The position numbers were made by a program, and so were the translations under genes. From assembly GCA_963754875.1 (NCBI GenBank), contig CAVWHO010000020.1, positions 175,374 through 239,373 on the forward strand: a DNA stretch of 64,000 bases, read 5' to 3'. Shown piece after piece: positions 13,004 through 28,400 of this stretch; the first letter of the stretch is position 1; the number at the start of each line of letters is the position of its first letter. A model generated the notes under the pieces. The model searched no databases, was not told where the DNA came from, and saw only the letters and a list, made by a program, of their open reading frames with translations. Source of the DNA: Nitrospirota bacterium (lineage in GTDB: Bacteria > Nitrospirota > UBA9217).

Positions 13004-13116
13004 AGCATCAATGCCGCGATGTGCGAAAGCATGAAGTGGGCCCCTTCCTCCCCTTAGGCAGTTCTTGCTTCGTGCCTTCACAACGCTGCGGCATACTTCT
13101 CTGAGAGGTGACAAAA

Positions 13117-14998: not shown

Positions 14999-15041
14999 GG
15001 TCCCCTCCTTGCGGCCTCTATGAATTTGATTATATACCTGA

Positions 15042-15091
15042 ATCCCGCGACTTGCAATCCCCAGGCTCCTGCCGGAGGGGCTCCACTCGCA
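15042..15091 (+). repeat. ~50-nt dispersed repeat, copy A (atcccgcgacttgcaatccccaggctcctgccggagggg...)
   Basis: About 85% identical to 24279..24334, in the same orientation. Confidence 0.7.
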
Positions 15092-15342
15092 GCGATCACG
15101 ATGCGTAATGAGAAAAAATGATGCTCAACCGTTGAATGCCAATACCTCGGATCAACGGTCAAGCCATTGATCGACCTGATCGACCCGGCCCCGAGTATTA
15201 TTTTGGAATTTGCAACGGCTCGTCTACGGGGAAACTTTTGAGGGCATGCTCTTGGCGAGTACGGTGTACGGCTGGGATAAAATATCGCGGCAGGACGGGC
15301 GTTGAAAACAACACCCGGCCTGCCTTGTTCGGGGATCCTGTT

Positions 15343-15534
15343 TTACGGTTTCTTTTCTTCCAGTTTTTTCGCTTCTACCGTGTCTTCTTCCTTCTCAGAC
15401 ATGGCTTTCTTGAATCCCCGGATGCTTTTCCCGAGGCTTTCCCCGAGTGCCGGCAATTTCCCCGGGCCGAAGATGATCAAGACGATTACGAGAATCAAAA
15501 GCAAATGCATTGGCTGAAATAGTCCTCTACCCAT
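15343..15534 (-). CDS. tatA: twin-arginine translocase subunit TatA/E (paralog 1)
   Basis: MGRGLFQPMHLLLILVIVLIIFGPGKLPALGESLG is a TatA TM-hinge-amphipathic helix. GGAG RBS before the internal ATG; the ORF could begin 5 codons earlier. Confidence 0.85.
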   Translation of the reverse strand: MGRGLFQPMHLLLILVIVLIIFGPGKLPALGESLGKSIRGFKKAMSEKEEDTVEAKKLEEKKP

Positions 15535-15557
15535 GGTAGCACCCTCCAATATTCAGG

Positions 15558-15809
15558 TTACTTTTTTATATCGCGCGAAGATCGCGTCTTCTTTTTCAAC
15601 GACGTTAAAATAAACATCACGAGGATCAGTATCCAGACAAATTTTAATGTTAAAAGAGTGAACGATAAATAGATAAATTGCTTTATCGACTTTAACGCTA
15701 AACCTGCAGCCACGATGAGGCCGCCGATAAGTAATATTCTATCAAATTTCATATCACACAATGAGGAAAACGACGTGTATACTGTAAATCTTTTTCCTTT
15801 GTTCTGCAA
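15558..15809 (-). CDS. hypothetical small membrane protein
   Basis: 83-aa hydrophobic ORF directly downstream of tatA; AT-rich; no motif. Confidence 0.3.
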   Translation of the reverse strand: MQNKGKRFTVYTSFSSLCDMKFDRILLIGGLIVAAGLALKSIKQFIYLSFTLLTLKFVWILILVMFILTSLKKKTRSSRDIKK

Positions 15810-15870
15810 CCTCTTTTTTCACATTGAGAAACGCCTTTACAACGCACCCGGCAGTTTTATGTTCATACGC

Positions 15871-17232
15871 TCACTCGCTTTCTAACCCATACTTCTTGAG
15901 CTTTCTCCAGAGGGAGACGCGATCTATGCCCAGTATCTGAGCGGCGAGGGTCTTGTTGCCGCCGACCTCGTTCAGCACCCACTTGATATAGGCTTCTTCC
16001 TGTTCATCGAGCGACGGAATTTTGCCTTCCTTTTTTCGGAACGTTTTGATGCTGAGTTCCCGCAGGTCCTCGGGCAGGTGGCCGGTCTCGATCGCTCCGC
16101 CGTTCGCGAGCGCCACGCCCCGCTCCATGATGTTCTCTAGTTCCCGTACATTGCCGGGAAAGTCGTAGTGCATGAGCAGGGCGATCACTTCTTCCGCGAT
16201 TTCGGTGACCTCTTTCTTCATAAGCACCGCATATTTTTTGAGGAAGTAGTAGGAAAGGAGGGGGATATCGTCCTTGCGTTCGACGAGCGGCGGGATGCGA
16301 AGCGAAACGACGTTCAGCCTGAAGTACAGGTCCTGACGGAATGAACCGCTTTTCATCGAATCGTGAATGTCCCTGTTCGTTGCCGCTACGAACCGTACGT
16401 CTACCTTGAGCGGGTCAATGCCCCCGACGCGCAGCACTTCCTTCTCCTGGATCACGCGCAGCAGTTTTACCTGCATGGACTGCGGCATCTCGGTCACTTC
16501 GTCCATGAACAGGGTGCCGCCCGACGCCATCTCGATCAGTCCCTTTTTCATGGCGCTCGCGCCGGTGAAGGCGCCCTTTTCGTGCCCGAACAGCTCGTTT
16601 GACAACAGCTCCTCGGTGAAGGCCCCGCAGTTGATGGCAAAGAAGGGGCCTTCCATGCGCTTGCTGTTAAGGTGGATGTATCGCGCGAAGAGTTCTTTGC
16701 CGGTTCCACTTTCTCCGGTGATCAGCACATTGCAGTCCGTGGGCGCGATTTGGCGCGCGGTCTCAAGCAGCTTCTGCATCGACGGGTCCTGGGTGATGAT
16801 CTTGACCTTGCCCTGGTAGCTTTCGAGTTGCTCGCGGAGGTGACGGTTCTCGGTCTTGAGCCTCACCTTATGCACGGCCTCCGACACGACCTTTCGCACT
16901 TCCTCCAGTTTAAACGGTTTCGCAATGTAGTAGAACGCCCCATCCTTCATGGTCTCAACGGCAGAGTCGAGCGTTGCATAACCCGTGATCATGACGACTT
17001 CCGTGTCCGGGTAAAGCTCGCGGGTCTTTTTTAGGATCTGCATGCCGTCTACTTTTTCCATACGGAGGTCTGTGAGCACGACGTCGAACTGCCGGTCTTC
17101 GAGAAGTTTAAGGGCGTTTGTTCCGCTCTGCGTGGCCGTAACGTCGTATCCTTCTTTTTTCATCACGTGCTCAAGGTTCCTGAGGGCTATCCGTTCGTCG
17201 TCGATGATGAGCAACTTACCTGAATCGGGCAT
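15871..17232 (-). CDS. sigma-54-dependent two-component response regulator (NtrC family: REC-AAA+-HTH)
   Basis: Receiver domain with DDERIAL...VLTDLRMEKVDG. GESGTGKELFARYIH, GAFTGA, C-terminal Fis HTH. Confidence 0.9.
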   Translation of the reverse strand: MPDSGKLLIIDDERIALRNLEHVMKKEGYDVTATQSGTNALKLLEDRQFDVVLTDLRMEKVDGMQILKKTRELYPDTEVVMITGYATLDSAVETMKDGAFYYIAKPFKLEEVRKVVSEAVHKVRLKTENRHLREQLESYQGKVKIITQDPSMQKLLETARQIAPTDCNVLITGESGTGKELFARYIHLNSKRMEGPFFAINCGAFTEELLSNELFGHEKGAFTGASAMKKGLIEMASGGTLFMDEVTEMPQSMQVKLLRVIQEKEVLRVGGIDPLKVDVRFVAATNRDIHDSMKSGSFRQDLYFRLNVVSLRIPPLVERKDDIPLLSYYFLKKYAVLMKKEVTEIAEEVIALLMHYDFPGNVRELENIMERGVALANGGAIETGHLPEDLRELSIKTFRKKEGKIPSLDEQEEAYIKWVLNEVGGNKTLAAQILGIDRVSLWRKLKKYGLESE

Positions 17233-17349
17233 GAATATGACTCCTTGTCAAATCTTGTGAGGACCAGAGGAACGTCTATCTGGTTCATGATGCAATCTCT
17301 GTACTTCCCCTGCCTGTAACTGAGACATCTTCTGTGATTCGTTTCTTCT

Positions 17350-18874
17350 TTAGTACTTCATCGGCAGCCGGATTAAAAAGCTCGTCCCTTTACCGGCCTC
17401 GCTGTCAACGGCGATACACCCGTCATGTTCCTCGATGATCTCATGGACGATGTACAGGCCGAGGCCCGAACCCTTTCCCACGTCTTTGGTAGTGAAGAAG
17501 GGGTCGAAAATCTTGGGAATGATGTCGACCGGGATGCCGGGACCGGTGTCCCTGATCTCGATGTCGACGGTGTCCTGGTCAAGCGTGCACTTGCCGCCGT
17601 ATTTCAGGTAATTATAAATACCGATCTTTCCGTCTTCAACGTCGTCCAGTGCCCTGCGTTTCTCCGCCTTGATCGTTACCGACCCTTCGGCAGACGTTAT
17701 GGCTTCAATAGCGTTCTTGATCAGGTTCAGGAACGCCTGCTGGATCCGCTGCTTGTCCGCGAAGATCACGATATCGTCGGGAACTGCAACGGTGATTGCG
17801 ATCCTGGTCGGGACCTGGCCCTTGATGAACTGGATCGTTTCCTCAAAGATCTTTTTGAGTACCAGCGACTCTTTCGTGAACTCCCGGTCCCGGGAAAAGT
17901 CGAGCAGGGAGCGGACGATATTTCGCGCCCGGTCTGTTTGATCGTTGATCTGATTGATCAGTTCCTGAACAAAATCAGGGTCTACGGGCCAGGAGACGTC
18001 CGCCTGTTTGCCGCGTGCTTCTTTCACTTCTTCCGCCAGGATCTGGTTCGACGTCGAGATGTTCGAAAGCGGATTGTTCAGCTCGTGGGCCACGCCGGAG
18101 AGGAGCGTGCCCAGGGACGCGAGCTTCTCGGACTGGATGAGGTGCCGCTCGTGCAGCTCCAACTCCTTCAGCATCTTATTGAAGGCCCGTGTCAGCGAGG
18201 CGATTTCCCGGTCTTTCGAGTCAATGGCAATGCGTTCAAACTTGCCTTCCGCGATGATGCCCATGCTCTCTTCAAGAGATTTCAACGGCTTCACCACCAT
18301 CCGGGACAGGATCTGGCCGATGACGATCACGGCGACGGACAGGATCAGGATCGAGATGACCAGGATGAGCTGAGAGTTCTTCAGCAGCAGCTGCAGGCTC
18401 CTCCGTTCGGTTTTAGCGATATCTTCCGCGGCCGTGATGATGTCCTTGCCCGTAGCACGGATATTGCCGGCGAGCATGAGCTTCCGTGCACTGCTATGCC
18501 TGCCTGCGAGTGCGTACTCTTCCATGAGCTCCCGATAGGTTTTCAAGCCGACCTGAAGCGACGATATCTGTTGCGACGAAGCAAAAGCCCTGAACCCGCG
18601 GATGTTGCGGTCGATGAGGTCCTGTGCCCGGGCAACGTACTGCACGTTTTCGTCATAGTCCGATTGCTGCTCGTAGAGAAAGAAATTCTTCTCGAATCGC
18701 CTGATCTTCGAGCGTCGTATCGAAAAACTCGGAGATCGCCTCGCCGACGATGATCTTCCGTTCCACGAACCGGAGTTCGAGATAGGTGAAGATCGTCAGA
18801 CCGATGATCAGGGCGACGATCGCATAGTAGCCCAGGGTGATCTTCTGTCGTATGCTGGGTTGATAATTGAACAT
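17350..18874 (-). CDS. sensor histidine kinase (TM-periplasmic domain-TM-HAMP-HisKA-HATPase) whose reading frame is interrupted near 18646..18655
   Basis: HELNNPLSNIS H-box. DTGPGIP...GSGLGLYIV G-boxes. The 73-aa ORF 18653..18874 carries TM1 and the start of the sensor domain, and the 431-aa ORF carries the rest. The two are offset by a frame change, and the downstream ORF begins with GTG at 18643. Confidence 0.75.
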
Positions 18875-18896
18875 GGTTTTCGCAAAGAGAGCTTTA

Positions 18897-18957
18897 CGTC
18901 TCAGGTCTCAAGTTTCTGGTTTTAAACTTGAGACTTGAAACTGGAGACTTGAGACAT
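18897..18957. repeat. cluster of GTCTCAAGTTT / AAACTTGAGAC motifs, including an 11-bp-arm palindrome
   Basis: gtctcaggtctcaagtttctggttttaaacttgagacttgaaactggagacttgagac. It shares a 15-mer with 21981..22030. Confidence 0.7.
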
Positions 18958-20955
18958 CTAAATCAGCACCGCATGTACGGCGTCCATCACGTTGTCGACC
19001 AGGCGAAGCTCGATGTCCTTTTTTACTTCTTCATCCAGTTCATCCACGTCGTCGCGGTTGCGGGCGGGCACGATCATGGTCTTGACCTTTGCTCGCTTGG
19101 CTGCCAGGACCTTTTCCCTGATGCCGCCCACCGGAAGTACCCGTCCCGTGAGAGTGATCTCGCCGGTCACGGCGATGTCCTTTCGCGCCGGGCGCCCGGT
19201 GAGCAGCGAGGCAAGGGCAAGGAGGATGGTGATGCCGGCCGACGGGCCGTCTTTCTGGATCGCGCCGGAAGGCACATGGACGTGGATGTCTTTCTGCTCA
19301 AAAAAATTGTCAGGGATGCCGAAGGCCTCGGCATTGCTCCTGATATAGGATAGGGCCGCCTGCGCCGACTCACGCATGACGTCGCCGAGGGATCCGGTGA
19401 TGATCAACTCTTTCGTGCCGTTCATTTTTGCTGCTTCCACGAAAATGATGTCTCCGCCTGTTTCGGTCCGCACGAGTCCTGTTGCGACGCCGATGCGGTC
19501 TTGCTCCTCGACCACGTCGAAGTGGTACTTCCGTTTGCCGAGATACGTCTCGACCGCGGCCGGCGTAATCACGACGGTTTCCGGCAGACCATGCCGGTCG
19601 ACAGAGGATTTGGCGATCTTTCTGCAGATGGTAGCGATCGTGCGCTCGAGGTTCCGGATGCCTGCTTCCCGGGTGTACTCCCGGATGATTTTTGCTACGG
19701 CGTCACCGGTAAAAACGACGTCGTCCGGAGACAGACCTTTCTCGCGGATCTGTTTCGGACAGAGGAACCGTGAAGCGATAAGCGCTTTTTCCTCCTCTGT
19801 GTAACCCGAGAACTCGATTACTTCCATGCGGTCCCGAAGCGGGGCCGGGACGGTTTCAAGCACGTTCGCGGTCAGGATAAACATGACGCCTGAAAGGTCG
19901 AAGGGAGCGTCCAGATAGTGGTCCACGAACGCGCGGTTCTGCTCCGGATCGAGCACTTCGAGCAGCGCCGATGCAGGGTCGCCCTTGAAGTCACGTCCGA
20001 TCTTGTCAAGTTCGTCGAGCATGATCACCGGGTTGGCCGATTCGACGCGGCGGATCTCCTCTATCACCCTGCCGGGCTTCGCCCCGACGTACGTGCGGCG
20101 GTGCCCCCGGATGTCTGCTTCGTCCTTGAGGCCGCCGAGGGCGATGCGGGTGAACTTTCTGCCGAGGGCCCGCGCAATGGAACGGCCGAGGGACGTCTTG
20201 CCTGTACCCGGAGGACCGGCGAAACAGAGGACCGAGCCCTTCGTGTTTGCCCGCACTGTCTTTGTATCCAATGCCTTCTTGATGGTGTCACGGACTTCAT
20301 CGAGCTTAAAGGGCTTCGCAATATAGTGGAAAGCCCCTTTTTGCATTGCCTCGATGGCGGAGGGGACCGTGGCAAAGCCGGTTATCATGACGACCCGGGC
20401 GTCCGGGTACCGGACCTTGATCCGGTCCAGGAGGTCCATGCCGTCGATTTTCCCCATGCGAAGGTCGGTCAGCACTACATCGAACTCGTCCATGTCGAGC
20501 TCTTTGAGCGCATCTTCGCCGCCTGCTACGGCAACCACGTCATACTCTTCCTTCGTAAGCACGTGAGCAAGGTTCTTTCGCGCGATCTCTTCATCATCGA
20601 CGATCAGGATTCGTGCCTTTTTGCTCATCCTGAGCACCTTCACGGCCAGGTGCTCGAGGACCCGCTCCTTGATCGTGCTGAGGCCGTAGTGGTTTTCGTT
20701 CAGGATACGCTCGGCACGGGAGAGGTCGAGATTGTCTTCGGTCTTTTTGTTCCACGGCAGACAGGCGAGGTAGTCGATGTAGGTCACACCGATGGTGTAT
20801 TCGGCAGACGATGGGCTGATCTTTGCCAGGATCGAGAGCTCCTGATCAGCGATCTTCTCCACCGGCCCGGGCATGCCGGCGCGAGATATTTTCTGGCGCA
20901 GCTCGGCAATGATAAGTTCGTGCTCGTTGTCGTCCGATTTTTTAAAAAATTTCAT
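18958..20955 (-). CDS. Lon-family ATP-dependent protease lacking the N-terminal substrate domain and carrying an inserted response-regulator receiver domain (linker-REC-AAA+-protease)
   Basis: YIDYLACLPWNKKTEDNLDLSRAERILNENHYGLSTIKERVLEHLAV is the Lon pre-AAA helical linker. ARILIVDDEEIARKNL...VLTDLRMGKIDGMDLL...AKPFKL is a CheY-like REC. GPPGTGKTSLGRSIA...GHRRTYVGAKPGR is Lon AAA+. DGPSAGITIL...GGIREKVLAAKRA supplies the Ser-Lys dyad. The ORF track begins at 20988; the ATG at 20955 has GAAGG upstream. Confidence 0.8.
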   Translation of the reverse strand: MKFFKKSDDNEHELIIAELRQKISRAGMPGPVEKIADQELSILAKISPSSAEYTIGVTYIDYLACLPWNKKTEDNLDLSRAERILNENHYGLSTIKERVLEHLAVKVLRMSKKARILIVDDEEIARKNLAHVLTKEEYDVVAVAGGEDALKELDMDEFDVVLTDLRMGKIDGMDLLDRIKVRYPDARVVMITGFATVPSAIEAMQKGAFHYIAKPFKLDEVRDTIKKALDTKTVRANTKGSVLCFAGPPGTGKTSLGRSIARALGRKFTRIALGGLKDEADIRGHRRTYVGAKPGRVIEEIRRVESANPVIMLDELDKIGRDFKGDPASALLEVLDPEQNRAFVDHYLDAPFDLSGVMFILTANVLETVPAPLRDRMEVIEFSGYTEEEKALIASRFLCPKQIREKGLSPDDVVFTGDAVAKIIREYTREAGIRNLERTIATICRKIAKSSVDRHGLPETVVITPAAVETYLGKRKYHFDVVEEQDRIGVATGLVRTETGGDIIFVEAAKMNGTKELIITGSLGDVMRESAQAALSYIRSNAEAFGIPDNFFEQKDIHVHVPSGAIQKDGPSAGITILLALASLLTGRPARKDIAVTGEITLTGRVLPVGGIREKVLAAKRAKVKTMIVPARNRDDVDELDEEVKKDIELRLVDNVMDAVHAVLI

Positions 20956-21229
20956 GTGCCTTCGTAAAAAACAATAAAGTGGTTGCATTTTACAACGTTC
21001 AGATTATCAATGCAACACTCAAAAAATCTTTTTTATTCAACGCGTAGCATGACTTTAGAGATAAAGCATTGCATTCTAAAACAATGGTGGACGAAAGTAC
21101 GATTTTTTATATTTATGTATTGTATCATTTTTTCAATGCATTATGCCGAGAAAAGGTTTTGGCACGAAGGTTGTAATTAGGAATAGTGAAAGAGCACAAG
21201 AAAACATCACGGGAAAGGAGGAACAGAGT

Positions 21230-21406
21230 ATGAAAACCTTAATGGAGAAATTAGAAACCACCATGGCGGCAGCTGCATTTGCAGAGGAAGGCGAGTTCGA
21301 GACCGCCCTCCAGATCCTGAGGGAAGATCAGCCGAGAAAAACCGACAGGCCGTCTGTTCATGATTATAAGAGACCATCTGCCAGAAAAGAACTGCGAGCC
21401 GACTGA
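21230..21406 (+). CDS. small hypothetical protein with an N-terminal TMAAAAFAEEGEFETA motif
   Basis: AAAGGAGG RBS 8 nt upstream. Shares its motif with the next gene. Confidence 0.5.
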   Translation: MKTLMEKLETTMAAAAFAEEGEFETALQILREDQPRKTDRPSVHDYKRPSARKELRAD

Positions 21407-21464
21407 TATTGCTGGCAACGCCTCAAGCGACTGTGAAAAAGCTGCATTCGTCAATAGAGGGACC

Positions 21465-21971
21465 ATGGAAACGACAAAGATCAAAAAGATGATGAAAATG
21501 GTGGAGCAGGCCCTGACAGCAGCATCATTTGCCGAAGAAGGGGAAGCGGAGACCGCCAATGCATTACTGTGGGAATCGCGGCGGGTGCTGCTGGGGCTCA
21601 AGGCAGGGCAGATAGATCCCAAAACACTGAAATACGCTCTCAACTCAGCCAGGCGGATCAATGCGCATCTCGACATTCTCTACGTTACCGGAGCGGTCAG
21701 CCAGAGTAAGGGTACGATTGATCCCGTACTTGAGCCATTTGTGTCGGAACTAACTGCAGCAGGGATTCCTTTTCGCCTGATCCCCCGGTCCGGTTGTCTT
21801 AAACAGCAGATAATCGACTACTCGAACAGTGAGAAGGAAATCCTGTTCGCCGTCATTGAGTCCCCGGCTACATTGGACGATGACTGCAATAAGCGCGACA
21901 AGGTGCTTGCTGAACTGTGGCGCCAACTGAAGTGTCCGCTCGTCGTGGTTATGGACGGGGCTGGGGCGTAA
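21465..21971 (+). CDS. protein with the same N-terminal motif (LTAASFAEEGEAETA) followed by a Usp-like alpha/beta domain
   Basis: AGAGGGA RBS. The C-terminal region LDILYVTG...ILFAVIESP...VVVMDG resembles the universal stress protein / adenine-nucleotide alpha-hydrolase fold. Confidence 0.55.
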   Translation: METTKIKKMMKMVEQALTAASFAEEGEAETANALLWESRRVLLGLKAGQIDPKTLKYALNSARRINAHLDILYVTGAVSQSKGTIDPVLEPFVSELTAAGIPFRLIPRSGCLKQQIIDYSNSEKEILFAVIESPATLDDDCNKRDKVLAELWRQLKCPLVVVMDGAGA

Positions 21972-21980
21972 TTAAGATAA

Positions 21981-22030
21981 GTCTCAAGTTTCATGTCTCA
22001 GGTCTCAAGAAACTCAAGTTTCAAGTCAAA
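21981..22030. repeat. second cluster of GTCTCAAGTTT-type motifs
   Basis: gtctcaagtttcatgtctcaggtctcaagaaactcaagtttcaagtc. Lies directly after the stop of the Usp-like gene. Confidence 0.7.
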
Positions 22031-22076
22031 CCAGAAAACTCAATACAATATTATTTCAATTCAAGGAGGATTTATC

Positions 22077-22328
22077 ATGGCACACAGCACCACGAAGAAA
22101 AAGCCGGTCGCTGCGATGATCGTTATGGGCATCATATCCCTGGCGCTCTATGCGGCGCTCCTGCTCAAACAGGATATGGTAAACAGTATTTTTGCCAAGG
22201 GCGGGCTGTACGCGCTGCTGCCGATCATCACGGCATTCATTTTTTCGTTTTTCCACGGCTCGTTTACCGGGCATTTCTGGACCGTACTCGGCGTAGAAGC
22301 GTCAAAGAAAAAAATGGAGGTAAAATAA
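22077..22328 (+). CDS. small 2-TM membrane protein immediately upstream of the TauE/SafE permease
   Basis: AGGAGGA RBS. Its stop lies 1 nt before the next ATG, suggesting coupling. Confidence 0.55.
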   Translation: MAHSTTKKKPVAAMIVMGIISLALYAALLLKQDMVNSIFAKGGLYALLPIITAFIFSFFHGSFTGHFWTVLGVEASKKKMEVK

Positions 22329-22329
22329 C

Positions 22330-23412
22330 ATGGACGATATCGTGACGAATTTCATCAATCTTGACGCTATTACCATCCTCTATCTGTTCGGTGTCGGATT
22401 TGTCGGCGGTCTGGTCAGCGGATTTATCGGTTCGGGCGGCGCTTTTGTTCTCACGCCGGGCATGATGAGCCTGGGCGTCCCTGGTCTCGTTGCAGTGGCG
22501 AGCAATATGTGCCACAAGTTTCCCAAAGCGCTCGTGGGTTCAATCAAACGTGCAAAATACGGGCAGGTTGACGTAAAGCTCGGCATTGTACTGGGTATTT
22601 CGGCTGAAGCCGGCGTGCTCTACGGCGCCCAGATCCAGGAAAACATCAAAAAAGCCTTCGGTGATGCCGGTTCCAATCTGTACGTGAGCGTGGCTTTTGT
22701 TGTGATTTTGGCAACGGTCGGCGGCTTCGTTCTTTATGACGCGTGGAAAACCTACAAGGCCGGAAACTCCCATGCCGTGGAAACGACCGGGAAACTGGCC
22801 AAGTGGGTGCAGTCCATCAATATCCCCGGCACCATGGTCTATTTCAAGAGCATCAATGCACGCGTATCTATCCTCTTCACGATCCCCCTCGGGTTTGCCA
22901 CCGGCATGCTGGCAGCCACGATCGCGGTCGGCGGCTTCATCGGCGTCCCCTCTATGATCTACGTCCTCGGTGCACCCAGCCTCATGGCCTCGGCCACGGA
23001 GCTGGTGATCGCTTTCGTCATGGGCCTCGGCGGTTCGCTCAAGTATGCCATGCACGGCATGGTCGACATCCGCCTTGCCATGATCATCCTCGCGGGATCG
23101 CTCTTCGGCATTCAGCTCGGAGCAATCGGCACAACCTATGTGAAGCCCTTCATGATCAAGGTCGTCATGGGCCTGATCATGGTAATCGTATTGTTCAGCC
23201 GGGGCCTCATGGTCCCTGTGTATCTTGCCCAGCTCGGTCTCATTGATAAATTGGGCGAGGGAACGGTGTCGTTGCTCAAGACCACGAGCTTTGCGATAAT
23301 GATCTTTGCACTGATGCTCGGTGCCTTCATCGTCCTTCGTGCCATGTGGCAGGGACGCCAGGCCGAGAGATTACAGCATGCGACTGGAGCCCTGGAACGT
23401 GGGGAAGTATAG
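22330..23412 (+). CDS. TauE/SafE (TSUP) family anion (sulfite/sulfonate) exporter-type permease
   Basis: GFIGSGGAFVLTPGMM, the duplicated 4-TM repeats and an overall 8-10 TM topology. Confidence 0.75.
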   Translation: MDDIVTNFINLDAITILYLFGVGFVGGLVSGFIGSGGAFVLTPGMMSLGVPGLVAVASNMCHKFPKALVGSIKRAKYGQVDVKLGIVLGISAEAGVLYGAQIQENIKKAFGDAGSNLYVSVAFVVILATVGGFVLYDAWKTYKAGNSHAVETTGKLAKWVQSINIPGTMVYFKSINARVSILFTIPLGFATGMLAATIAVGGFIGVPSMIYVLGAPSLMASATELVIAFVMGLGGSLKYAMHGMVDIRLAMIILAGSLFGIQLGAIGTTYVKPFMIKVVMGLIMVIVLFSRGLMVPVYLAQLGLIDKLGEGTVSLLKTTSFAIMIFALMLGAFIVLRAMWQGRQAERLQHATGALERGEV

Positions 23413-24253
23413 GAAGATCCTTGTTGCTGTAGACGGATCGGAATCGAGCCGGAACGCCCTTCACCAGGCGTTCCGGTTTGCTATTGATGAGAAATGCTGG
23501 ATCACCGTGACGTCGGTGGTGCCCCCGTACGAGGGGGAGATAGAGATCCTTGGCGTCAGGGACATCCGCGCTGCCTTGCGGAAACCTTGTGAAGAGGCCC
23601 TGGATGATGCCCAACGGTTCGCGGACGAGGAGCGCGCTCTCATCAAGACGGTTTGCGAAGAAGGGGAGGCGCATGAGCGCATTGTCGAACTTGCCGACGC
23701 GGAGAACTGTGACCTCATCATCATGGGGCGGCGGGGGCTCCGGCCCGTCGAGCGCATGCTGGTCGGGCGCGTCACGGCGCGGGTCATCGGCCATACGCAT
23801 CTCGATGTCCTGGTTGTCCCGAACAATACGACCGTCGGCTGGAAAAAAATCGTGCTGGCGACCGACGGTTCGAAGTACAGCGCGGCAGCGGCAGAACGGG
23901 CGATCGCCTTTGCCAAATCCTACGGCGGGGAACTGAAAGTCCTGTCGGTTGCTGACCTGCCTCCGGAATTTTATGCCGAAGCCCCCCAAGCAGTAGAGGA
24001 TCTTGTGCACAAAGCGAAAGGGTTCGTGTCTGCTGTAAAAAAACAGGCCGAGGCTGTGGGAGTGCCGGCAGAGACCTTTGTGGGGGAGGCGGAAGCGTAT
24101 CAGGCGATCAATAACCTTAGGTGGGATCAGAAGGCCGACATCATCGTCCTGGGGTCGCATGGCAGGACCGGTCTGCGCCGTCTCCTCATGGGAAGCGTCA
24201 CTGAAAAAGTCATCGGATATGCGTCCTGTCCCGTGCTCGTTGTCAAAACGTAA
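23378..24253 (+). CDS. tandem universal stress protein (UspA) domain protein
   Basis: Two Usp repeats (KILVAVDGSESS... and KIVLATDGSKYS...GSHGRTGLRRLLMGSVTEKV). The start is uncertain (ATG 23378 or GTG 23399). Confidence 0.75.
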   Translation: MRLEPWNVGKYRKILVAVDGSESSRNALHQAFRFAIDEKCWITVTSVVPPYEGEIEILGVRDIRAALRKPCEEALDDAQRFADEERALIKTVCEEGEAHERIVELADAENCDLIIMGRRGLRPVERMLVGRVTARVIGHTHLDVLVVPNNTTVGWKKIVLATDGSKYSAAAAERAIAFAKSYGGELKVLSVADLPPEFYAEAPQAVEDLVHKAKGFVSAVKKQAEAVGVPAETFVGEAEAYQAINNLRWDQKADIIVLGSHGRTGLRRLLMGSVTEKVIGYASCPVLVVKT

Positions 24254-24278
24254 TGCCATTTAGATGTTAATCTCATGG

Positions 24279-24334
24279 ATCCCGCAACTTGCAATCCCCC
24301 GGCTCCTGCCTGCCGGAGGGTGCCCCATTCGCAC
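24279..24334 (+). repeat. ~50-nt dispersed repeat, copy B
   Basis: atcccgcaacttgcaatcccccggctcctgcctgccggagggtgccccattcgca; see copy A at 15042. Confidence 0.7.
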
Positions 24335-24495
24335 TCCCTGCTTATCCTGAATTTATTTGTCAGAACGATCTCTGTCAATGGGTACAACGACGCCGAAGGC
24401 TGGCTGGGAATAAAAAAAATCGGTTATGCTCTCTGCCTCATGTTCGTCGAGTAACCGTGAACAGGCGCCGGAGGCCTCCTTCGCCCATTTATGAA

Positions 24496-24524
24496 TTGAC
24501 AGCATGAAGAAAGGCCGGTATAAT
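24496..24524 (+). promoter_or_regulatory. consensus sigma-70 promoter (TTGACA-17 bp-TATAAT) for tatA paralog 2
   Basis: Perfect hexamers with a 17-bp spacer, 27 nt upstream of the tatA2 ATG. Confidence 0.75.
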
Positions 24525-24550
24525 AAATTGTCGTTAAGGAGGGGAACACC

Positions 24551-24751
24551 ATGTTTGAAGGCCTGTTTCAGCCCATGCATCTGATTCTTATCTTGCTTAT
24601 TGTGCTCATCATTTTTGGACCCGGCAAGCTTCCCGAACTCGGCGAGGGGCTCGGAAAAAGCATTAAAGCTTTTAAGAAGGCCATGAAGGACGAGAGCAGC
24701 GAAAAAACCGAAATACCAACCATAGAGCACAAGGAAGAAAAAAAGGCGTAG
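24551..24751 (+). CDS. tatA: twin-arginine translocase subunit TatA/E (paralog 2)
   Basis: MFEGLFQPMHLILILLIVLIIFGPGKLPELGEGLG; AGGAGGGG RBS. Confidence 0.9.
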   Translation: MFEGLFQPMHLILILLIVLIIFGPGKLPELGEGLGKSIKAFKKAMKDESSEKTEIPTIEHKEEKKA

Positions 24752-24796
24752 CCTACACCCCGCCATATCAGTTCCTTTTGAATATTCAGCATACCA

Positions 24797-24842
24797 AAGA
24801 CACGGGTTGAGGTAGTGATCCTCAATCCGTGTCTTTTTTGTG
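24797..24842 (+). terminator. rho-independent terminator after tatA2
   Basis: aaagacacgggttgagg...cctcaatccgtgtcttttttgtgttt: a long stem followed by a T-run. Confidence 0.8.
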
Positions 24843-24930
24843 TTTATCCCGTTGTTTACCGGCAACTCCAGGAACAACGATAGTAAACCGGATAGATTCG
24901 GTCATTGAATACTGTTTGTCCATTATCTTT

Positions 24931-26745
24931 ATGCCTGACACAACCTCCTCGTTCAGAGGAATCATAAAGTCTCTCGGCCTGGTCTTCGGCGACATCGGCA
25001 CAAGCCCGATCTACACCCTCACGGTCATTATCCTGCTCACCCCGCCGACGATGGAAAACGTGATCGGCGTACTATCGCTCATCGTCTGGACTCTCATCAT
25101 ATTGGTGACCGTGGAGTATGCATGGCTCGCCATGAGTCTGGGCAAGCGCGGCGAGGGCGGGACCATAGTGCTTAGGGAGCTACTGGTGCCGCTGCTGAAG
25201 ACAGGCCGGCAGGTGAGCCTTGTAACGCTGCTCTCCTTTATCGGCATTTCGCTCATCATCGGAGACGGTGTCATCACTCCTGCCATCAGTATCCTATCCG
25301 CTGTGGAAGGCATGCTTCTGATCAAGGGGCTTGAGGGGATAAGCCAGACGTCCCTCGTGGTCATCGCCGGTGCCATCGCCATCCTGCTCTTTTCATTTCA
25401 AAAAAAGGGAACCGAGCGCGTTGCCGGCGCTTTTGGCCCCCTGATGCTGGTTTGGTTTGCTGCCTTGAGTGTGTCGGGCCTGGCCTCCATCGTCCAGGTA
25501 CCTGTGGTGATCAAGGCGATCAACCCTTACTACGCCCTTGTCTTCCTCGTCAAAAACGGAATAGGCGGGTTCTTCGTACTCTCCGAGGTTATTCTGTGCG
25601 CAACGGGCGGTGAAGCACTTTATGCCGACATGGGCCATCTCGGCCGTGAGCCCATCGTCCGGGCATGGTACTTCGTTTTCATTGCACTCGTGCTCAATTA
25701 TCTCGGCCAGGGCGCCTTTTTGATCCAGCATCCCGATGCCAAGAACGTGCTGTTCGAAATGGTCTATCACCAGGCACAATTCCTCTACATCCCGTTCCTT
25801 GTCCTCTCCATCATTGCAACGGTCATTGCGTCACAAGCGATGATCAGCGGCATGTTCTCGATCGTCTATCAGGGTATCACGACGCGGATCATGCCCATGT
25901 TCAAGGTCGATTACACGTCCGAAGAACGACACTCCCAGATATATATCGGCTTCGTAAACTGGTTCCTGCTCTTCTGTGTGCTCTACATTATCAAAGAGTT
26001 CCGCGAATCAAGCAAGCTGGCTGCCGCCTACGGTCTGGCTGTCACCGGCACCATGACCCTTACCGGCATCTTCATGACCTGGATTTTCATGCTCCGGAAA
26101 AAATACGGACATGCGGCCGTTTCCCTGCTCGTCACGTTCGTAACTTTCACCTTTCTGTTGTCCAATACCTACAAGATACCGCACGGCGGGTATTGGTCCA
26201 TCATTATTGCAGCCATCCCGTTTTCTATCATCATGCTCTACCGCGTGGGGCAGCGGAAGCTCTACAATGCGCTCCAACCTCTGCCGATCGATGTTTTTTT
26301 GCTGAGCTACAATCAAATTTATCAAAGGGCGAGCAAGATCAACGGTACGGCGCTTTATTTTGCCAAGGATGCCAAAGAAATACCGCCCTACATCGTCCAT
26401 ACGATGTTCAAGAACAATATCCTTTACGAAGACAATATTATTGTTTCAATCGTAAAGCGGGAAGACCCCTTCGGCGTTACCGGATTTTTCAAAGGGGAGC
26501 TTGCCCAGGGCCTGCGCGCCTTCGAGATTCAGATGGGATACATGGAAGTGCCCGATGTTGAGGAGATTCTTAGGGAGGCGGGGATCCAGGAGAAGACGAT
26601 TTTCTACGGCGTCGAGGACATCCTGCCGAGCAACCTTATCTGGCAGATTTTTTCGTTGATCAAGAGGCTGACGCCGAACATCGTCCAGTTCTACAAACTT
26701 CCTTACAATAAACTTCACGGTGTCGTGACGAGGATTGAGTTATAA
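24931..26745 (+). CDS. kup: KUP/HAK/KT family potassium uptake transporter
   Basis: GLVFGDIGTSPIYT signature near the N-terminus, ~12 TM helices, and a C-terminal cytoplasmic domain. The start is taken at the internal ATG that precedes the conserved motif. Confidence 0.85.
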   Translation: MPDTTSSFRGIIKSLGLVFGDIGTSPIYTLTVIILLTPPTMENVIGVLSLIVWTLIILVTVEYAWLAMSLGKRGEGGTIVLRELLVPLLKTGRQVSLVTLLSFIGISLIIGDGVITPAISILSAVEGMLLIKGLEGISQTSLVVIAGAIAILLFSFQKKGTERVAGAFGPLMLVWFAALSVSGLASIVQVPVVIKAINPYYALVFLVKNGIGGFFVLSEVILCATGGEALYADMGHLGREPIVRAWYFVFIALVLNYLGQGAFLIQHPDAKNVLFEMVYHQAQFLYIPFLVLSIIATVIASQAMISGMFSIVYQGITTRIMPMFKVDYTSEERHSQIYIGFVNWFLLFCVLYIIKEFRESSKLAAAYGLAVTGTMTLTGIFMTWIFMLRKKYGHAAVSLLVTFVTFTFLLSNTYKIPHGGYWSIIIAAIPFSIIMLYRVGQRKLYNALQPLPIDVFLLSYNQIYQRASKINGTALYFAKDAKEIPPYIVHTMFKNNILYEDNIIVSIVKREDPFGVTGFFKGELAQGLRAFEIQMGYMEVPDVEEILREAGIQEKTIFYGVEDILPSNLIWQIFSLIKRLTPNIVQFYKLPYNKLHGVVTRIEL

Positions 26746-26875
26746 AGTTCGAATGCCGGTTGGGACCGTTTCAAGTTGAACCAGAGTGGTCATCAGTCCA
26801 ATCGGGGGTCGTTTTCTGACCCATAGTAATCTTTTTTCGGCTGTGGTATAGTATTCTCGAAGGTGGTGAACTTTT

Positions 26876-27181
26876 ATGGTGGACAACATCAATAATGCAC
26901 CGTTAACAGCGCTTAATGCTTATAGCACTCTGCTGAACAATACGGCCAATAATGTTGCCAATATGAATACCGATACCTATCGACCTCTTGAAACCACCAT
27001 GCAGGATTCCACTCCTTCAGGCGTCACGGCAATAACGTCGCGGAACGAAAATGGAGACCGTGTCGATCTTTCAAGGGAGGCGGTGAGTCTGATCACCGCG
27101 GAGACCGGTTTCAAGGCAAACATCGACGTTTTAAAAACCGTTCAAAAAATGCAGAAGAGCGTTATTGACATAATTGCATAG
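26876..27181 (+). CDS. short flagellar basal-body-rod-family (FlgB/FlgC-like) protein, orphan
   Basis: N-terminal ANNVANMNTDTY matches the rod N-terminal signature (ANNiANanTpGY), and the C-terminus is DVDLSREAVSLITAETGFKANIDVLKT. An upstream -10 tatagt is present. Confidence 0.45.
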   Translation: MVDNINNAPLTALNAYSTLLNNTANNVANMNTDTYRPLETTMQDSTPSGVTAITSRNENGDRVDLSREAVSLITAETGFKANIDVLKTVQKMQKSVIDIIA

Positions 27182-27215
27182 GTTCGTGAGAGGGTAGGCG
27201 TTGTTGGGGAAGGGG

Positions 27216-28316
27216 TTATAGCGGAAGTTTCGTTGTCTCCTCGATTACGGCGTGGGATTCCGTCCCGCTTAAAGACTGCAGCCGGTCCCCGAACTTTTCC
27301 AATCTCTTGTCCGCATCATCGTATTTCGATTTCGTATTTGTCAGATGTTTTCCCACCAGTTCAAAATCCGCCCTGAACTTCTCAAAATCACCGGACAGTC
27401 TCGCCAGGCTTTTCAGGATCTCCTGCGCCTGTTCTTCGACGTGCATTCCTTTAAGACCGAGAAGTATCGTCTGGAGATAAGCATAGAAACTGTTCGGCGA
27501 CACGGGGATAACGCGTTTCGTAAAAGCGTAGTTCAGCAGAGCCTTGTCCGTGTCCACTGCCTCGTCTTTAATGATGAGCTCGTAATAGACATTTTCCGCC
27601 GGGATGTACATAAGTGCGAAGTCAAAGGTCCCTTCGTCGGGCAGGATGTACTTGCCTGCAATGGCATCGATATGTTTTTTCACGTCGCTGATGAACTTCT
27701 TTTTTGCGGCCTTGCGATCCTCTTCCGTGGCCGTCTCCACGACGCGCTTGAAATTCTCCAGAGGAAACTTGGCGTCAATCGGCACAAGGTTGTGGCCGAG
27801 CCTGATGACGGCGTCTACGGCCTCGCCGCTCTTGAACCGGTGTTGAAGCGAGTAGTGGGCCGGCGGAAAGATTTGCGCCAGCAGGTCGCCGAGGAACAAC
27901 TCCCCGAGCCCGCCGCGAAGTTTTGGCGACCGCAGGATCTCCTGCAGGCTTGCGATGTCCTTCCCCACGTCGAACACCTTTTTCGTGGCCTCAGAGAGGC
28001 TGCCCAGTCCCTTGCTTACCTCCTGGACCACGCGCGCCGCGTTATCGAGCCGCGTATTCAGGTCTCCCGTTGATTTCTGGAGTTGCTGCGTCACCTGGCC
28101 GAGCTGCGAGTTGACCTGGAGCGTTATTTGGCCGAGTTGCTGGTTCACGGTCTCCTGGCTTTTGAGCATGGCCTCCGTCAGCTGACCGCGGAGGGATTGC
28201 ACTTCCTGTTGGAGCATCCCGACCGTAGGATCGATGCTCTTCTTCTGCGACTGGAGTACGAGCCAGAGAAGGATGAAGACGACTGCTGCAAGGAGTATGA
28301 GGATGGCGGTAAGCAT
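27216..28316 (-). CDS. rmuC: DNA recombination protein RmuC
   Basis: N-terminal TM, a long coiled-coil, and the C-terminal RmuC nuclease-like region (YILPDEGTFDFALMYIPAENVYYE). Confidence 0.75.
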   Translation of the reverse strand: MLTAILILLAAVVFILLWLVLQSQKKSIDPTVGMLQQEVQSLRGQLTEAMLKSQETVNQQLGQITLQVNSQLGQVTQQLQKSTGDLNTRLDNAARVVQEVSKGLGSLSEATKKVFDVGKDIASLQEILRSPKLRGGLGELFLGDLLAQIFPPAHYSLQHRFKSGEAVDAVIRLGHNLVPIDAKFPLENFKRVVETATEEDRKAAKKKFISDVKKHIDAIAGKYILPDEGTFDFALMYIPAENVYYELIIKDEAVDTDKALLNYAFTKRVIPVSPNSFYAYLQTILLGLKGMHVEEQAQEILKSLARLSGDFEKFRADFELVGKHLTNTKSKYDDADKRLEKFGDRLQSLSGTESHAVIEETTKLPL

Positions 28317-28400
28317 AGGTACGTTCGGAGTATTACCTTCGGAGTGATGAGTGCCGAGTCTGGAGCGCTGATTAAATTTGCTCCGAACTCTGGACCGCTA

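What the first reader, a model, noticed from the sequence alone, without database searches (positions are those of the whole stretch)
21230..21971. Adjacent genes share an N-terminal (T/A)AA(A/S)FAEEGE(F/A)ETA peptide; the second adds a Usp-like domain
A 58-aa protein (MKTLMEKLETTMAAAAFAEEGEFETALQILRED...) and the next 168-aa protein (...MVEQALTAASFAEEGEAETANALLWESRR...) begin with nearly the same ~25-residue acidic motif, each behind its own good RBS. The longer one continues into a universal-stress-protein-like alpha/beta domain. The shared peptide looks like a docking or recognition module (a partner-switch or anti-sigma-antagonist style interaction is conceivable). The pair sits between the Lon/kinase/EBP operon and the TauE permease.
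Basis: seen in the sequence. Interest (0 to 1): 0.5.

Follow-up and report, generated by a model that had tools for sequence, protein, structure and literature searches.

The report
Split TPR-like hairpin in stress-transporter operon
Two neighbouring genes really do share a conserved 33-residue helix-turn-helix. It is one unit of an unannotated TPR/PPR-like repeat that bacteria attach to stress-protein and response-regulator domains in sigma-54-controlled anion-transporter operons, most likely so that these small regulators can dock onto one another.

Summary
g1 (21230-21406, 58 aa) and g2 (21465-21971, 168 aa) share a homologous 33-residue N-terminal segment: 16/32 identical, and profile-profile probability 97.7%. 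Both genes are conserved. The pair is adjacent in 32 of 33 evaluable genome loci, and g1 is under purifying selection (dN/dS about 0.12).

The segment is not a private peptide. It is a helix-turn-helix repeat with signature A-x-x-F-A-E-[A/E]-G-E-x-x-T-A. It occurs in 1,395 protein-cluster representatives, at 1-4 copies per protein, with a modal spacing of 34 residues. Only sub-threshold TPR/PPR matches were found, and there is no Pfam or NCBIfam model.

The repeat occurs in four arrangements:
- alone, with a basic tail (g1);
- in front of a Usp fold that lacks the ATP motif (g2);
- inserted inside Usp-like domains;
- at the C-terminus of receiver domains.

In every readable context it sits next to a sigma-54 activator, a histidine kinase and an anion permease.

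The window's locus has the same gene organisation as the Desulfovibrio vulgaris "three-component system" DVU3303-3305 and its target operon DVU3302-3298. That system is published, but the hairpin is not mentioned there.

Most likely mechanism (inferred): hairpins encoded on separate genes stack in trans. This would assemble g1 and g2 into a regulatory complex for the TauE permease and its signalling circuit.

The find is moderately interesting: a new variant of a known kind.

The parts
21160..21175 (+). sigma-54 type promoter TGGCACGAAGGTTGTA (-24 GG / -12 TG elements), 55 nt upstream of the g1 start codon
   Evidence: This is the only match to TGGCAC-N5-TTGYW in the 64 kb window. TGGCA[CT] followed by a -12-like TG, about 30-90 nt upstream of the first hairpin gene, was found in the related loci examined: 19 by strict pattern and 15 by reading the upstream sequence, of about 38 g1-type starts.
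21230..21406 (+). g1: 58-aa protein. Hairpin = residues 1-33 (21230-21328): helix 2-19, turn E20-G21-E22, helix 23-31. Then a conserved basic tail, residues 34-58 (...RPRKTDRPS..RP.ARKELRAD).
   Evidence: Family of 155+ members with 17 invariant columns. AlphaFold2 pLDDT is 81-91 over the hairpin and the tail is unstructured. dN/dS is 0.12. No Pfam or NCBIfam hit.
21465..21971 (+). g2: 168-aa protein. Hairpin = residues 6-39 (21480-21581). Usp-like alpha/beta domain = residues 40-163 (21582-21953), without the G-x2-G-x9-G-[ST] ATP-binding motif.
   Evidence: AlphaFold2 model. Foldseek PDB hits to Usp proteins. Pfam Usp below threshold. The sequence after beta4 reads ESPATLDDDCNKRDKVLAELW and contains no glycine (read directly).
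22077..22328 (+). g3: 83-aa predicted two-helix membrane protein, ending one nucleotide before the TauE start codon
   Evidence: Conserved next to TauE in all 35 genome loci. No family hit.
22330..23412 (+). TauE/SafE (TSUP) family anion permease, 360 aa
   Evidence: Pfam PF01925, E=7.5e-33. It has the same position in the operon as DVU3299, called a putative anion transporter in PMC10102598. Homology to DVU3299 was not tested.
23378..24253 (+). Tandem Usp protein, 291 aa, overlapping the end of the TauE gene. The second domain has the canonical G-x2-G-x9-G-S motif.
   Evidence: Pfam Usp E=1.8e-63, two stretches. The motif GSHGRTGLRRLLMGS was read in the translation.
18958..20988 (-). Lon protease with a receiver (REC) domain inserted before the AAA+ module and no N-terminal substrate-binding domain. 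Transcribed divergently from g1.
   Evidence: Pfam Response_reg 127-236, AAA 254-394, Lon_C 474-675. This is the domain make-up described for DVU3303 (PMC3333781).
17350..18874 (-). HAMP histidine kinase. In this window it is interrupted by an apparent +1 frameshift near 18708.
   Evidence: Pfam HAMP/HisKA/HATPase_c. The L001 orthologue is one 513-aa ORF.
15871..17232 (-). Sigma-54 enhancer-binding response regulator (REC-AAA+-HTH_8, GAFTGA at residue 220)
   Evidence: Pfam. GAFTGA motif.
20982..21016 (.). Perfect 8-bp inverted repeat GTTGCATT-N19-AATGCAAC, about 150 nt upstream of the sigma-54 promoter. A candidate activator-binding site; weak evidence.
   Evidence: Conservation in other loci was not tested.

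Best explanation
What is shown. The shared peptide is a single copy of a 33-34-residue helix-turn-helix repeat, with consensus K-K-h-E-x-x-M-x-A-x-x-F-A-E-[A/E]-G-E-[F/H]-[E/D]-T-A-R-x-I-h-x-E. It belongs to the TPR/PPR kind of helical-hairpin repeat but has no Pfam or NCBIfam model. It behaves as a mobile module: 1-4 copies per protein, either alone with a basic tail, in front of or inside Usp-like domains, or at the C-terminus of receiver domains.

In the window, g1 (hairpin plus basic tail) and g2 (hairpin plus a Usp domain lacking the ATP motif) are the first two genes of a sigma-54-dependent operon, g1-g2-g3-TauE-tandem Usp. That operon is transcribed divergently from a Lon-REC protease, a HAMP histidine kinase and a sigma-54 activator. 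This is the organisation described in Desulfovibrio vulgaris as the DVU3303-3305 'three-component system' with target operon DVU3302-3298. That system is induced by high pH, heat and stationary phase, and its permease matters under chlorate stress.

What is inferred. A lone hairpin cannot form a stable solenoid. The hairpins of g1 and g2 would therefore stack on each other in trans, as tandem copies do in cis in related proteins, including proteins that look like g1 and g2 fused into one chain. This would bring g1's conserved basic tail to g2's Usp-like domain. The resulting small cytoplasmic complex would tune the TauE permease and/or feed its state back to the kinase/activator/Lon circuit.
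For: Homology of the two N-termini.

Helix-turn-helix prediction: g1 helices 2-19 and 23-31 with pLDDT 81-91; g2 helices 2-24 and 28-37 with low confidence, as expected for a segment that needs a partner.

Repeat nature: an exhaustive profile search found 1,395 cluster representatives at E<=1e-3 and 179 at E<=1e-10, and the best hits carry 2-4 copies. The modal copy spacing is 34 residues, 30 of 119 spacings.

TPR/PPR kinship:
- The TPR clan is the only repeat clan hit recurrently among the 148 best representatives; the other recurrent family is Usp. All TPR-clan hits are below the gathering score.
- A 3-copy member matches natural maize PPR10 at E=1e-4 and designer PPRs in register.

Combination with signalling domains:
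- Usp-like (g2 type).
- Inserted after beta2 of a Usp-like domain.
- REC with a C-terminal hairpin, in five separate proteins.

Support for trans pairing:
- Natural two-hairpin-plus-Usp proteins align to the whole of g2 and carry an extra g1-like hairpin and linker (P0357, hhalign 98.5%). At least 10 such 50%-identity clusters exist.
- Nearly every locus encodes two or more separate hairpin-bearing genes.

Neighbourhood:
- Synteny holds in 35 genome loci.
- Divergent members always sit beside a sigma-54 activator, a kinase and an anion permease.
- The sigma-54 promoter is conserved upstream of g1.

System-level function comes from the literature: PMC3333781, PMC10102598 and PMC4641369. Usp proteins are known to regulate transporters; the top structural hit is TeaD of the TeaABC transporter.
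Against: - No direct evidence of a g1-g2 contact. Only single chains could be modelled.
- In locus L042 a two-hairpin g2-type protein coexists with a separate g1-type gene. So fusion does not replace g1, which weakens the Rosetta-stone argument.
- Membership of TPR or PPR is not demonstrable by sequence. All Pfam scores are below threshold, and the single-hairpin profile against consensus TPR is not significant.
- g1 stays next to the Lon-REC gene in several different gene orders (window, L027, L036, L037, L042). This could point to Lon rather than g2 as its partner.
- Equivalence of the locus with DVU3298-3305 rests on gene organisation and on the paper's statement about Thermodesulfovibrio. 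I could not compare sequences with D. vulgaris.
Confidence: 0.5

Rival explanations
1. Common third partner in the signalling machinery. Each hairpin docks independently onto a protein of the two-component circuit rather than onto another hairpin. One version: g1 is a feedback anti-activator of the sigma-54 enhancer-binding protein. This is the PspA/PspF logic, where the first gene of the sigma-54 operon encodes a small helical protein and the activator is encoded divergently. A second version: the hairpin or the basic tail is an adaptor or degron for the Lon-REC protease, which lacks its own substrate-binding N-domain.
For: - The sigma-54 activator plus a histidine kinase are the only neighbours constant across every context, whereas the transporter family changes.
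- g1 is the first gene behind the sigma-54 promoter wherever this could be read.
- g1 stays adjacent to the Lon-REC gene in divergent, co-directional and convergent arrangements (window; L027 and L037; L036; L042).
- Lon-REC lacks the canonical N-terminal substrate domain.
- The three D. vulgaris signalling genes have cofitness above 0.9 (PMC10102598).
Against: - No similarity to PspA or to known anti-activators or Lon adaptors.
- Loci L029 and L031 have g1 and g2 but no Lon-REC gene between the kinase gene and g1.
- This reading does not explain why the unit occurs as in-register tandem arrays, or why loci carry several hairpin genes.
Confidence: 0.27
2. Transporter docking. The hairpin anchors g1 and g2 to the cytoplasmic face of the TauE permease or its 83-aa partner g3. 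The Usp-like domain would then gate transport, as TeaD does for the TeaABC transporter.
For: - g1, g2, g3 and TauE are co-transcribed and syntenic in 35 loci.
- The best structural match of g2 is TeaD, a Usp encoded with and regulating a transporter.
- Paralogous systems again put a hairpin-Usp gene directly upstream of a TauE gene.
Against: - Hairpin proteins also occur with unrelated permeases of the DASS/CitMHS family and with no adjacent TauE (L045, L047).
- REC-hairpin fusions sit among signalling genes.
- A single conserved docking surface on two unrelated transporter families is unlikely.
Confidence: 0.12
3. RNA binding. The unit is a bacterial PPR-like repeat, and g1's Arg/Lys-rich tail helps to bind an RNA, for example the operon leader.
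For: - A three-copy family member matches PPR proteins in the PDB sequence search: natural PPR10 at E=1e-4, and designer PPRs in register.
- The g1 tail carries 8 Arg/Lys in 25 residues (read in the sequence).
Against: - Single repeats cannot read RNA.
- The position aligned with PPR residue 5 is a conserved Met or other hydrophobic residue, not Asn/Ser/Thr (read).
- Pfam and TIGRFAM PPR scores are below threshold.
- The hairpin surface is strongly acidic.
Confidence: 0.03
4. Chance resemblance of two Ala/Glu-rich helices, or g1 is a non-coding or leader ORF.
For: The segment is rich in Ala and Glu.
Against: - Profile-profile E=1.4e-12.
- Invariant A14, F17, A18, E19, G21 and A26 across families.
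- dN/dS of 0.12.
- Conserved pairing in 32 of 33 evaluable loci.
Confidence: 0.01

Closest known systems
Tetratricopeptide (TPR) and pentatricopeptide (PPR) helical-hairpin repeats (Pfam clan TPR)
   Same: - Helix-turn-helix unit of about 34 residues.
- Small-residue and Gly pattern (A..FA..G....A..h) in the same register as the TPR/PPR 'G-[DR]-[YL]-[DE]-E-A' core.
- Tandem copies with a modal period of 34.
- Weak, consistent hits to TPR_4/6/12/14 and PPR models, and to PPR structures.
   Different: - No model reaches its threshold.
- The signature F-A-E-[A/E]-G-E-x-x-T-A is distinctive and acidic.
- Helix A is long (about 18 residues) and helix B short (about 9).
- Most members carry only 1-3 copies, often one copy per gene spread over several genes of one locus. 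Classical TPR and PPR proteins have three or more tandem copies in one chain.
Desulfovibrio vulgaris 'three-component system' DVU3303 (Lon-protease response regulator), DVU3304 (kinase) and DVU3305 (sigma-54 regulator), with target operon DVU3302-3298 (Rajeev et al. 2011, PMC3333781; Trotter et al. 2023, PMC10102598)
   Same: - Same gene organisation: a Lon-REC, kinase and sigma-54 activator operon divergent from a sigma-54 operon that encodes hypothetical, membrane, anion-permease and UspA-type proteins.
- The paper reports orthologues in Thermodesulfovibrio (Nitrospirota).
   Different: - The papers treat the small upstream genes only as hypothetical proteins and do not describe the shared hairpin.
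- Sequence-level orthology with the D. vulgaris genes could not be tested here.
- The window's activator has GAFTGA, whereas DVU3305 has GAFSGA.
Universal stress proteins that regulate transporters or kinases (TeaD of TeaABC; the Usp domain of KdpD)
   Same: g2 residues 40-163 adopt the Usp fold, and g2 is encoded in a transporter operon. TeaD and KdpD-Usp are among the best structural matches.
   Different: g2 lacks the ATP-binding glycine motif, scores below the Pfam Usp threshold, and carries the N-terminal hairpin, which these proteins do not have.
PspA/PspF negative feedback in sigma-54 operons
   Same: A small helical protein is encoded as the first gene of a sigma-54 operon whose activator is encoded divergently. 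Small membrane proteins follow in the same operon.
   Different: There is no sequence or predicted-fold similarity to PspA. The activator here has a receiver domain and a cognate kinase. The resemblance is in circuit layout only.

Membership tests
TPR repeat (Pfam clan CL0020) | Repeat period of about 34 residues in tandem arrays | tested here: met
   The modal spacing of consecutive copies is 34 residues (30 of 119 spacings) in the 148 best representatives. The two window proteins have one copy each.
TPR repeat (Pfam clan CL0020) | Antiparallel helix-turn-helix unit | tested here: met
   AlphaFold2 gives g1 helices 2-19 and 23-31 with pLDDT 81-91, and g2 helices 2-24 and 28-37 at low confidence. 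These are predictions, not solved structures.
TPR repeat (Pfam clan CL0020) | Sequence match to a TPR model above its curated threshold | tested here: not met
   g1 and g2 give no TPR hit at E<=1. Multi-copy relatives hit TPR_4/6/12/14/19 only below the gathering score; the best E-value is 5.6e-6. hhalign of the hairpin profile against consensus TPR gives probability 0.4%.
PPR repeat | Sequence similarity to PPR models or structures | tested here: inconclusive
   P0340 matches natural PPR10 at E=1e-4. Its match to designer PPR at E=5e-19 is inflated by repeats, since each stretch alone has i-E of about 0.03. Pfam PPR scores 16.7 against a 25-bit cut-off, and TIGR00756 about 17-18 against 20 bits.
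PPR repeat | Polar RNA-reading residues at positions 5 and 35, and long tandem arrays | tested here: not met
   The aligned position 5 is a conserved Met or hydrophobic residue. Copy number is 1-4.
Universal stress protein (PF00582), for g2 | Usp alpha/beta fold | tested here: met
   Foldseek against the PDB: the top 46 of the 50 listed matches are all Usp-family entries, the best being TeaD 3hgm at E=6e-6, probability 1.00. The model has pLDDT 87-93 in the core.
Universal stress protein (PF00582), for g2 | Pfam score above the gathering threshold | tested here: not met
   14.4 bits against 24, E=0.059, covering only residues 39-78. A few homologues carry a precomputed PF00582 hit.
Universal stress protein (PF00582), for g2 | ATP-binding motif G-x2-G-x9-G-[ST] | tested here: not met
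   The segment after beta4 is ESPATLDDDCNKRDKVLAELW, with no glycine. The downstream tandem Usp does carry the motif (GSHGRTGLRRLLMGS).
DVU3303-3305 / DVU3302-3298 type three-component stress system | Lon protease fused to a receiver domain, plus a histidine kinase and a sigma-54 response regulator in one operon | tested here: met
   Pfam domain calls. The arrangement is conserved in most genome loci. The kinase is frameshifted in this window.
DVU3303-3305 / DVU3302-3298 type three-component stress system | Divergent sigma-54-dependent target operon encoding membrane, hypothetical and UspA-type proteins | tested here: met
   Sigma-54 promoter at 21160-21175, followed by g1-g2-g3-TauE-Usp.
DVU3303-3305 / DVU3302-3298 type three-component stress system | Sequence orthology to the D. 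vulgaris genes and the same activator binding site | not testable with these tools
The paper states that orthologues exist in Thermodesulfovibrio yellowstonii.
Partner-switch / anti-sigma antagonist (STAS) module | STAS domain protein together with an anti-sigma serine kinase or PP2C phosphatase | tested here: not met
   No such domain was found in g1, g2 or any gene from 13065 to 29574.

The most novel reading that the evidence does not exclude
The FAEAGE hairpin is a 'split solenoid' signalling connector: a TPR/PPR-like unit encoded one copy per gene. It would serve as the sole output module of single-domain response regulators and as the docking arm of Usp-like sensors. Phosphorylation or ligand state would then be read out by which hairpins stack together. 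In this locus the assembled g1-g2 complex, with g1's basic tail, would feed back on the sigma-54 activator or be cleared by the phosphorylation-gated Lon-REC protease. That would give a combined transcriptional and proteolytic control of an anion permease.
Probability: 0.25. Interest if true: 0.7.

Novelty: new variant of a known kind. Interest (0 to 1): 0.5.

Why it matters
This work gives names and a testable role to the 'hypothetical proteins' at the head of a widely conserved stress and anion-transport operon of sulfate reducers and Nitrospirota. The regulators of that operon (Lon-REC, kinase, sigma-54 activator) already have genetic phenotypes in a model organism.

It defines a repeat family with more than 1,000 50%-identity protein clusters and no Pfam or NCBIfam model. 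It also suggests an unusual design in which a helical repeat is split over several small genes and serves as the interaction or output module for receiver and Usp domains.

If the trans-assembly idea holds, it would explain how many orphan single-domain response regulators with short C-terminal extensions pass on their signal.

Tried and rejected
Family and structure searches that found nothing decisive:
- Pfam and NCBIfam scans of g1 and g2 gave no family for g1 and only a sub-threshold Usp hit for g2.
- The PDB sequence search with the single-hairpin profile found nothing meaningful; the best hit was E=0.77, a CopG antitoxin over 14 residues.
- The Foldseek search with the g1 model found nothing significant; the best E-value was about 6.
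- hhalign of the hairpin profile against consensus TPR was not significant.

Technical dead ends:
- Looking up the protein identical to g1 (P0121) on its contig returned 'not on record'.
- The first motif profile was too short for the homologue search.
- The afdb50 fold library was unavailable. I therefore could not obtain UniProt or organism links or the D. vulgaris counterparts.
- The listing of cluster members returned no organism names for ten multi-copy proteins.

Other checks:
- A full-text search for FAEAGE, FAEEGE and AFAEAGEH returned only one unrelated paper.
- I tested the GAFSGA signature of DVU3305 as an orthology marker. The window's activator has GAFTGA, so this was not informative.

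Ideas considered and dropped:
- Recent duplication or gene conversion: DNA identity is only 35/51.
- g1 as a non-coding leader: dN/dS is 0.12.
- A transcription terminator between g1 and g2: none was found.
- A mirror-tree or covariation test of g1 against g2: too few pairs (about 32), and shared phylogeny would dominate.
Full report
**1. The observation**

- g1 runs from 21230 to 21406 (58 aa) behind GGAAAGGAGG.
- g2 runs from 21465 to 21971 (168 aa) behind GAGGG.

Their N-termini align without gaps: 16 of 32 residues identical, 23 of 32 similar, E=8e-8 for the pairwise comparison. When each is replaced by an alignment of its own family, the profile-profile comparison gives 97.7% probability and E=1.4e-12 over 33 columns.

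No other stretch in the six frames of the window resembles the core AAFAEEGE. The two coding stretches share only 35 of 51 nucleotides. So the likeness is old and held by selection on the protein.

**2. Both are real, conserved genes and a conserved pair**

g2 has 458 relatives and g1 at least 155 in the metagenome protein collection. In g1, 17 columns are invariant among 22 diverse members. These include A14, F17, A18, E19, G21, F23, E24 and A26 in the helix-turn-helix, and R36, R40, P41, R48, R52 and R56 in the tail.

Codon comparison of 14 orthologues gives a median dN/dS of 0.12: 0.09 for residues 1-33 and 0.17 for the tail.

A scan of one genome per species found 35 loci encoding g2. Thirty-three are labelled Nitrospirota, Nitrospirae or Nitrospira. 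One is a MAG labelled Betaproteobacteria and one is Caldimicrobium. Thirty-two of the 35 carry a g1-type gene upstream of g2. In 31 it lies 184-453 nt upstream. In L027 it lies 2.7 kb upstream, ahead of the Lon gene. Two of the three exceptions are cut by the contig end, and L003 has a decayed copy.

**3. Anatomy**

AlphaFold2 with family alignments gives the following.
- g1: helix 2-19, a turn at E20-G21-E22, helix 23-31 (pLDDT 81-91), then an unstructured Arg/Lys/Pro-rich tail.
- g2: the same two helices (2-24 and 28-37) at low confidence, followed by a confident five-stranded alpha/beta domain, residues 40-163.

The best matches of the g2 domain in the PDB are universal stress proteins: TeaD of the TeaABC transporter at E=6e-6, then UspA, KdpD-Usp and others. 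The domain lacks the G-x2-G-x9-G-[ST] nucleotide-binding motif. It scores below the Pfam Usp threshold. The tandem Usp encoded downstream does have the motif.

**4. The peptide is a repeat unit of a large unannotated family**

I built a 34-column profile from the hairpins of both families and searched it against 1.84 billion cluster representatives. It found 1,395 proteins at E<=1e-3 and 179 at E<=1e-10. The top hits contain two to four copies.

Among the 148 best representatives, 94 have two or more copies. The commonest spacing between copies is 34 residues.

No Pfam or NCBIfam model reaches threshold on any member tested. The only recurrent weak hits are TPR_4, TPR_6, TPR_12, TPR_14, TPR_19, PPR, the FimV C-terminal TPR-like motif, and Usp.

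A three-copy member matches maize PPR10 at E=1e-4. It aligns in register with designer PPR repeats: FAEAGEFETARQI against LAKAGRLEEALQL. That summed E-value of 5e-19 is inflated by the repeats, since single stretches have i-E of about 0.03. The single-hairpin profile has no significant PDB relative and does not match consensus TPR by hhalign.

I therefore call it a TPR/PPR-like hairpin repeat. It is a relative in kind, but membership of either family is not demonstrated.

**5. Architectures**

The unit occurs in six arrangements.
- (a) Alone with a basic tail ending RKELRAD or RKQLRAPGI[KD]R. This is the g1 type.
- (b) In front of a Usp-like domain. This is the g2 type.
- (c) Twice in front of the same Usp-like domain. 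P0357 aligns to all of g2 at 98.5% probability and adds a g1-like hairpin plus linker. At least ten 50%-identity clusters have this layout.
- (d) Two to four times in front of a second kind of Usp-like domain (P0338, P0347, P0350).
- (e) Inserted after strand 2 of a Usp-like domain in a paralogous system (L008, L013, L030, L031).
- (f) At the C-terminus of receiver domains, in five separate proteins (L032, L043, L045 and two in L046).

Some two- and three-copy proteins end in a further conserved motif, GLxGVxVxYG.

**6. Neighbourhood**

In the window and in the genome loci the order is: sigma-54 activator, HAMP kinase and Lon-REC on one strand; g1, g2, an 83-aa membrane protein, TauE and a tandem Usp on the other.

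A sigma-54 type promoter, TGGCACGAAGGTTGTA, lies 55 nt before g1. It is the only such match in the 64 kb window. TGGCA[CT] with a -12-like TG was found about 30-90 nt upstream of the first hairpin gene in the loci examined: 19 by strict pattern and 15 by reading the sequence, of about 38 g1-type starts.

Divergent family members were looked up on their contigs. All contexts long enough to read contain a sigma-54 activator and a histidine kinase. They also contain an anion permease, which is TauE in most cases but DASS/CitMHS in L045 and L047. Nearly every locus carries two or more separate hairpin-bearing genes.

**7. What is already known**

The locus type is published. [quoted passage not shown] DVU3305 binds upstream of its own operon and of DVU3302-3298. 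[quoted passage not shown] The genes rise at high pH, under heat shock and in stationary phase. Orthologues are noted in Thermodesulfovibrio yellowstonii (PMC3333781).

Transposon fitness data show the three signalling genes cofit above 0.9. They also show the permease DVU3299 is needed under chlorate stress (PMC10102598). The sigma-54 regulome paper lists the same regulon (PMC4641369).

None of these papers mentions the shared hairpin. The strings FAEAGE and FAEEGE occur in no relevant paper.

**8. Mechanism**

Shown:
- The two proteins share a conserved helical hairpin of the TPR/PPR kind.
- The unit is modular and combined with Usp and receiver domains.
- The genes head a sigma-54 operon for a TauE permease, next to a Lon-REC/kinase/activator set.

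Inferred:
- Such hairpins stabilise each other by stacking.
- Relatives carry them in tandem at a 34-residue period.
- Some lineages have g1-like and g2-like parts in one chain.
- Loci almost always encode several hairpin genes.

From these points, the simplest reading is that hairpins on different proteins stack in trans. In this locus g1 would bind g2. The product, a Usp-like domain lacking the ATP motif decorated with g1's conserved basic tail, would be a regulatory accessory of the permease or of the signalling circuit.

I give this about 0.5. The main rival (0.27) is that each hairpin binds a common component of the two-component machinery. That would make g1 either a PspA-like feedback inhibitor of the activator, or an adaptor or substrate of the Lon-REC protease. 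The rival is favoured by two facts. The activator and kinase are the constant neighbours. And g1 stays next to the Lon-REC gene in different gene orders.

Direct docking on the permease is less likely because the permease family varies. RNA binding and chance resemblance are unlikely.

**9. Verdict**

What is new is a distinctive, unannotated TPR/PPR-like repeat used as a split, combinable interaction unit in a known but poorly understood stress and transport system. Interest is moderate (0.5). It is directly testable in D. vulgaris, provided its DVU3302-3300 proteins carry the unit.

Noticed in passing
window 17350-18874 (-), shift near 18708: The histidine kinase gene appears broken by a +1 frameshift. 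The first ~57 codons (MFNYQPSIRQKITLGYY...FFDTTLE, containing the first membrane helix) are in a different frame from the remaining 431 codons. The L001 orthologue is a single 513-aa ORF. This is either an assembly error or a pseudogene.
   Followed up: partly
window 18958-20988 (-): This Lon protease lacks the usual N-terminal substrate-binding domain and has a receiver domain inserted just before the AAA+ module. It is the DVU3303 type. How phosphorylation gates such a Lon, and what it degrades, is unknown.
   Followed up: partly
window 28398-29610, 53844-55056, 93-1307: There are three copies of a DDE_3/IS630-like insertion element. Two are 99.9% identical. The third is 89.9% identical and inverted.
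   Followed up: partly
window 24829-26745 (+): A Kup-type K+ transporter lies directly downstream of the operon. This is conserved in L001, L002, L004, L005, L006 and L010. In D. vulgaris the DVU3305 activator also targets the kdp potassium-uptake operon (PMC3333781). This hints at a link between the system and K+/pH homeostasis.
   Followed up: no
window 13065-14261 (+): A 398-aa protein combines nitrite/sulfite-reductase 4Fe-4S and ferredoxin-like domains with a C-terminal TusA sulfur-carrier domain.
   Followed up: no
window 20982-21016: A perfect 8-bp inverted repeat, GTTGCATT-N19-AATGCAAC, lies in the divergent promoter region. It may be the activator's binding site. I did not check its conservation in other loci.
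   Followed up: no
L008 14643-15143; L013 11258-11833; L030 15957-16502; L031 10473-10952: A paralogous kinase/activator/TauE system lies downstream of the main one. It encodes a Usp-like protein with the hairpin inserted inside the domain, after strand 2, rather than at the N-terminus.
   Followed up: partly
L032 13339-12872 (-); L043 541-1026; L045 9926-10405; L046 6337-6846 and 6850-7308: These single-domain response regulators have the same hairpin as their only C-terminal extension. They are encoded next to multi-hairpin proteins.
   Followed up: partly
proteins P0340, P0344, P0348, P0354, P0359 and others (27 of the 148 best representatives): Many two- and three-hairpin proteins end in a conserved C-terminal motif of the form (F)L..(V/L)GL.G(V/A).(V/L).YG.V. 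Its function is unknown.
   Followed up: no
window 22077-22328 (+): This 83-aa membrane protein ends one nucleotide before the TauE start codon and is conserved with TauE in all 35 loci. It has no family assignment and may be a permease subunit.
   Followed up: no
L036 4435-4542: A 35-aa mini-ORF consisting of little more than one degenerate hairpin (…LLTAVAFADVGEYRHAL…) lies directly upstream of, and overlaps, a g2-type gene in a paralogous system.
   Followed up: no
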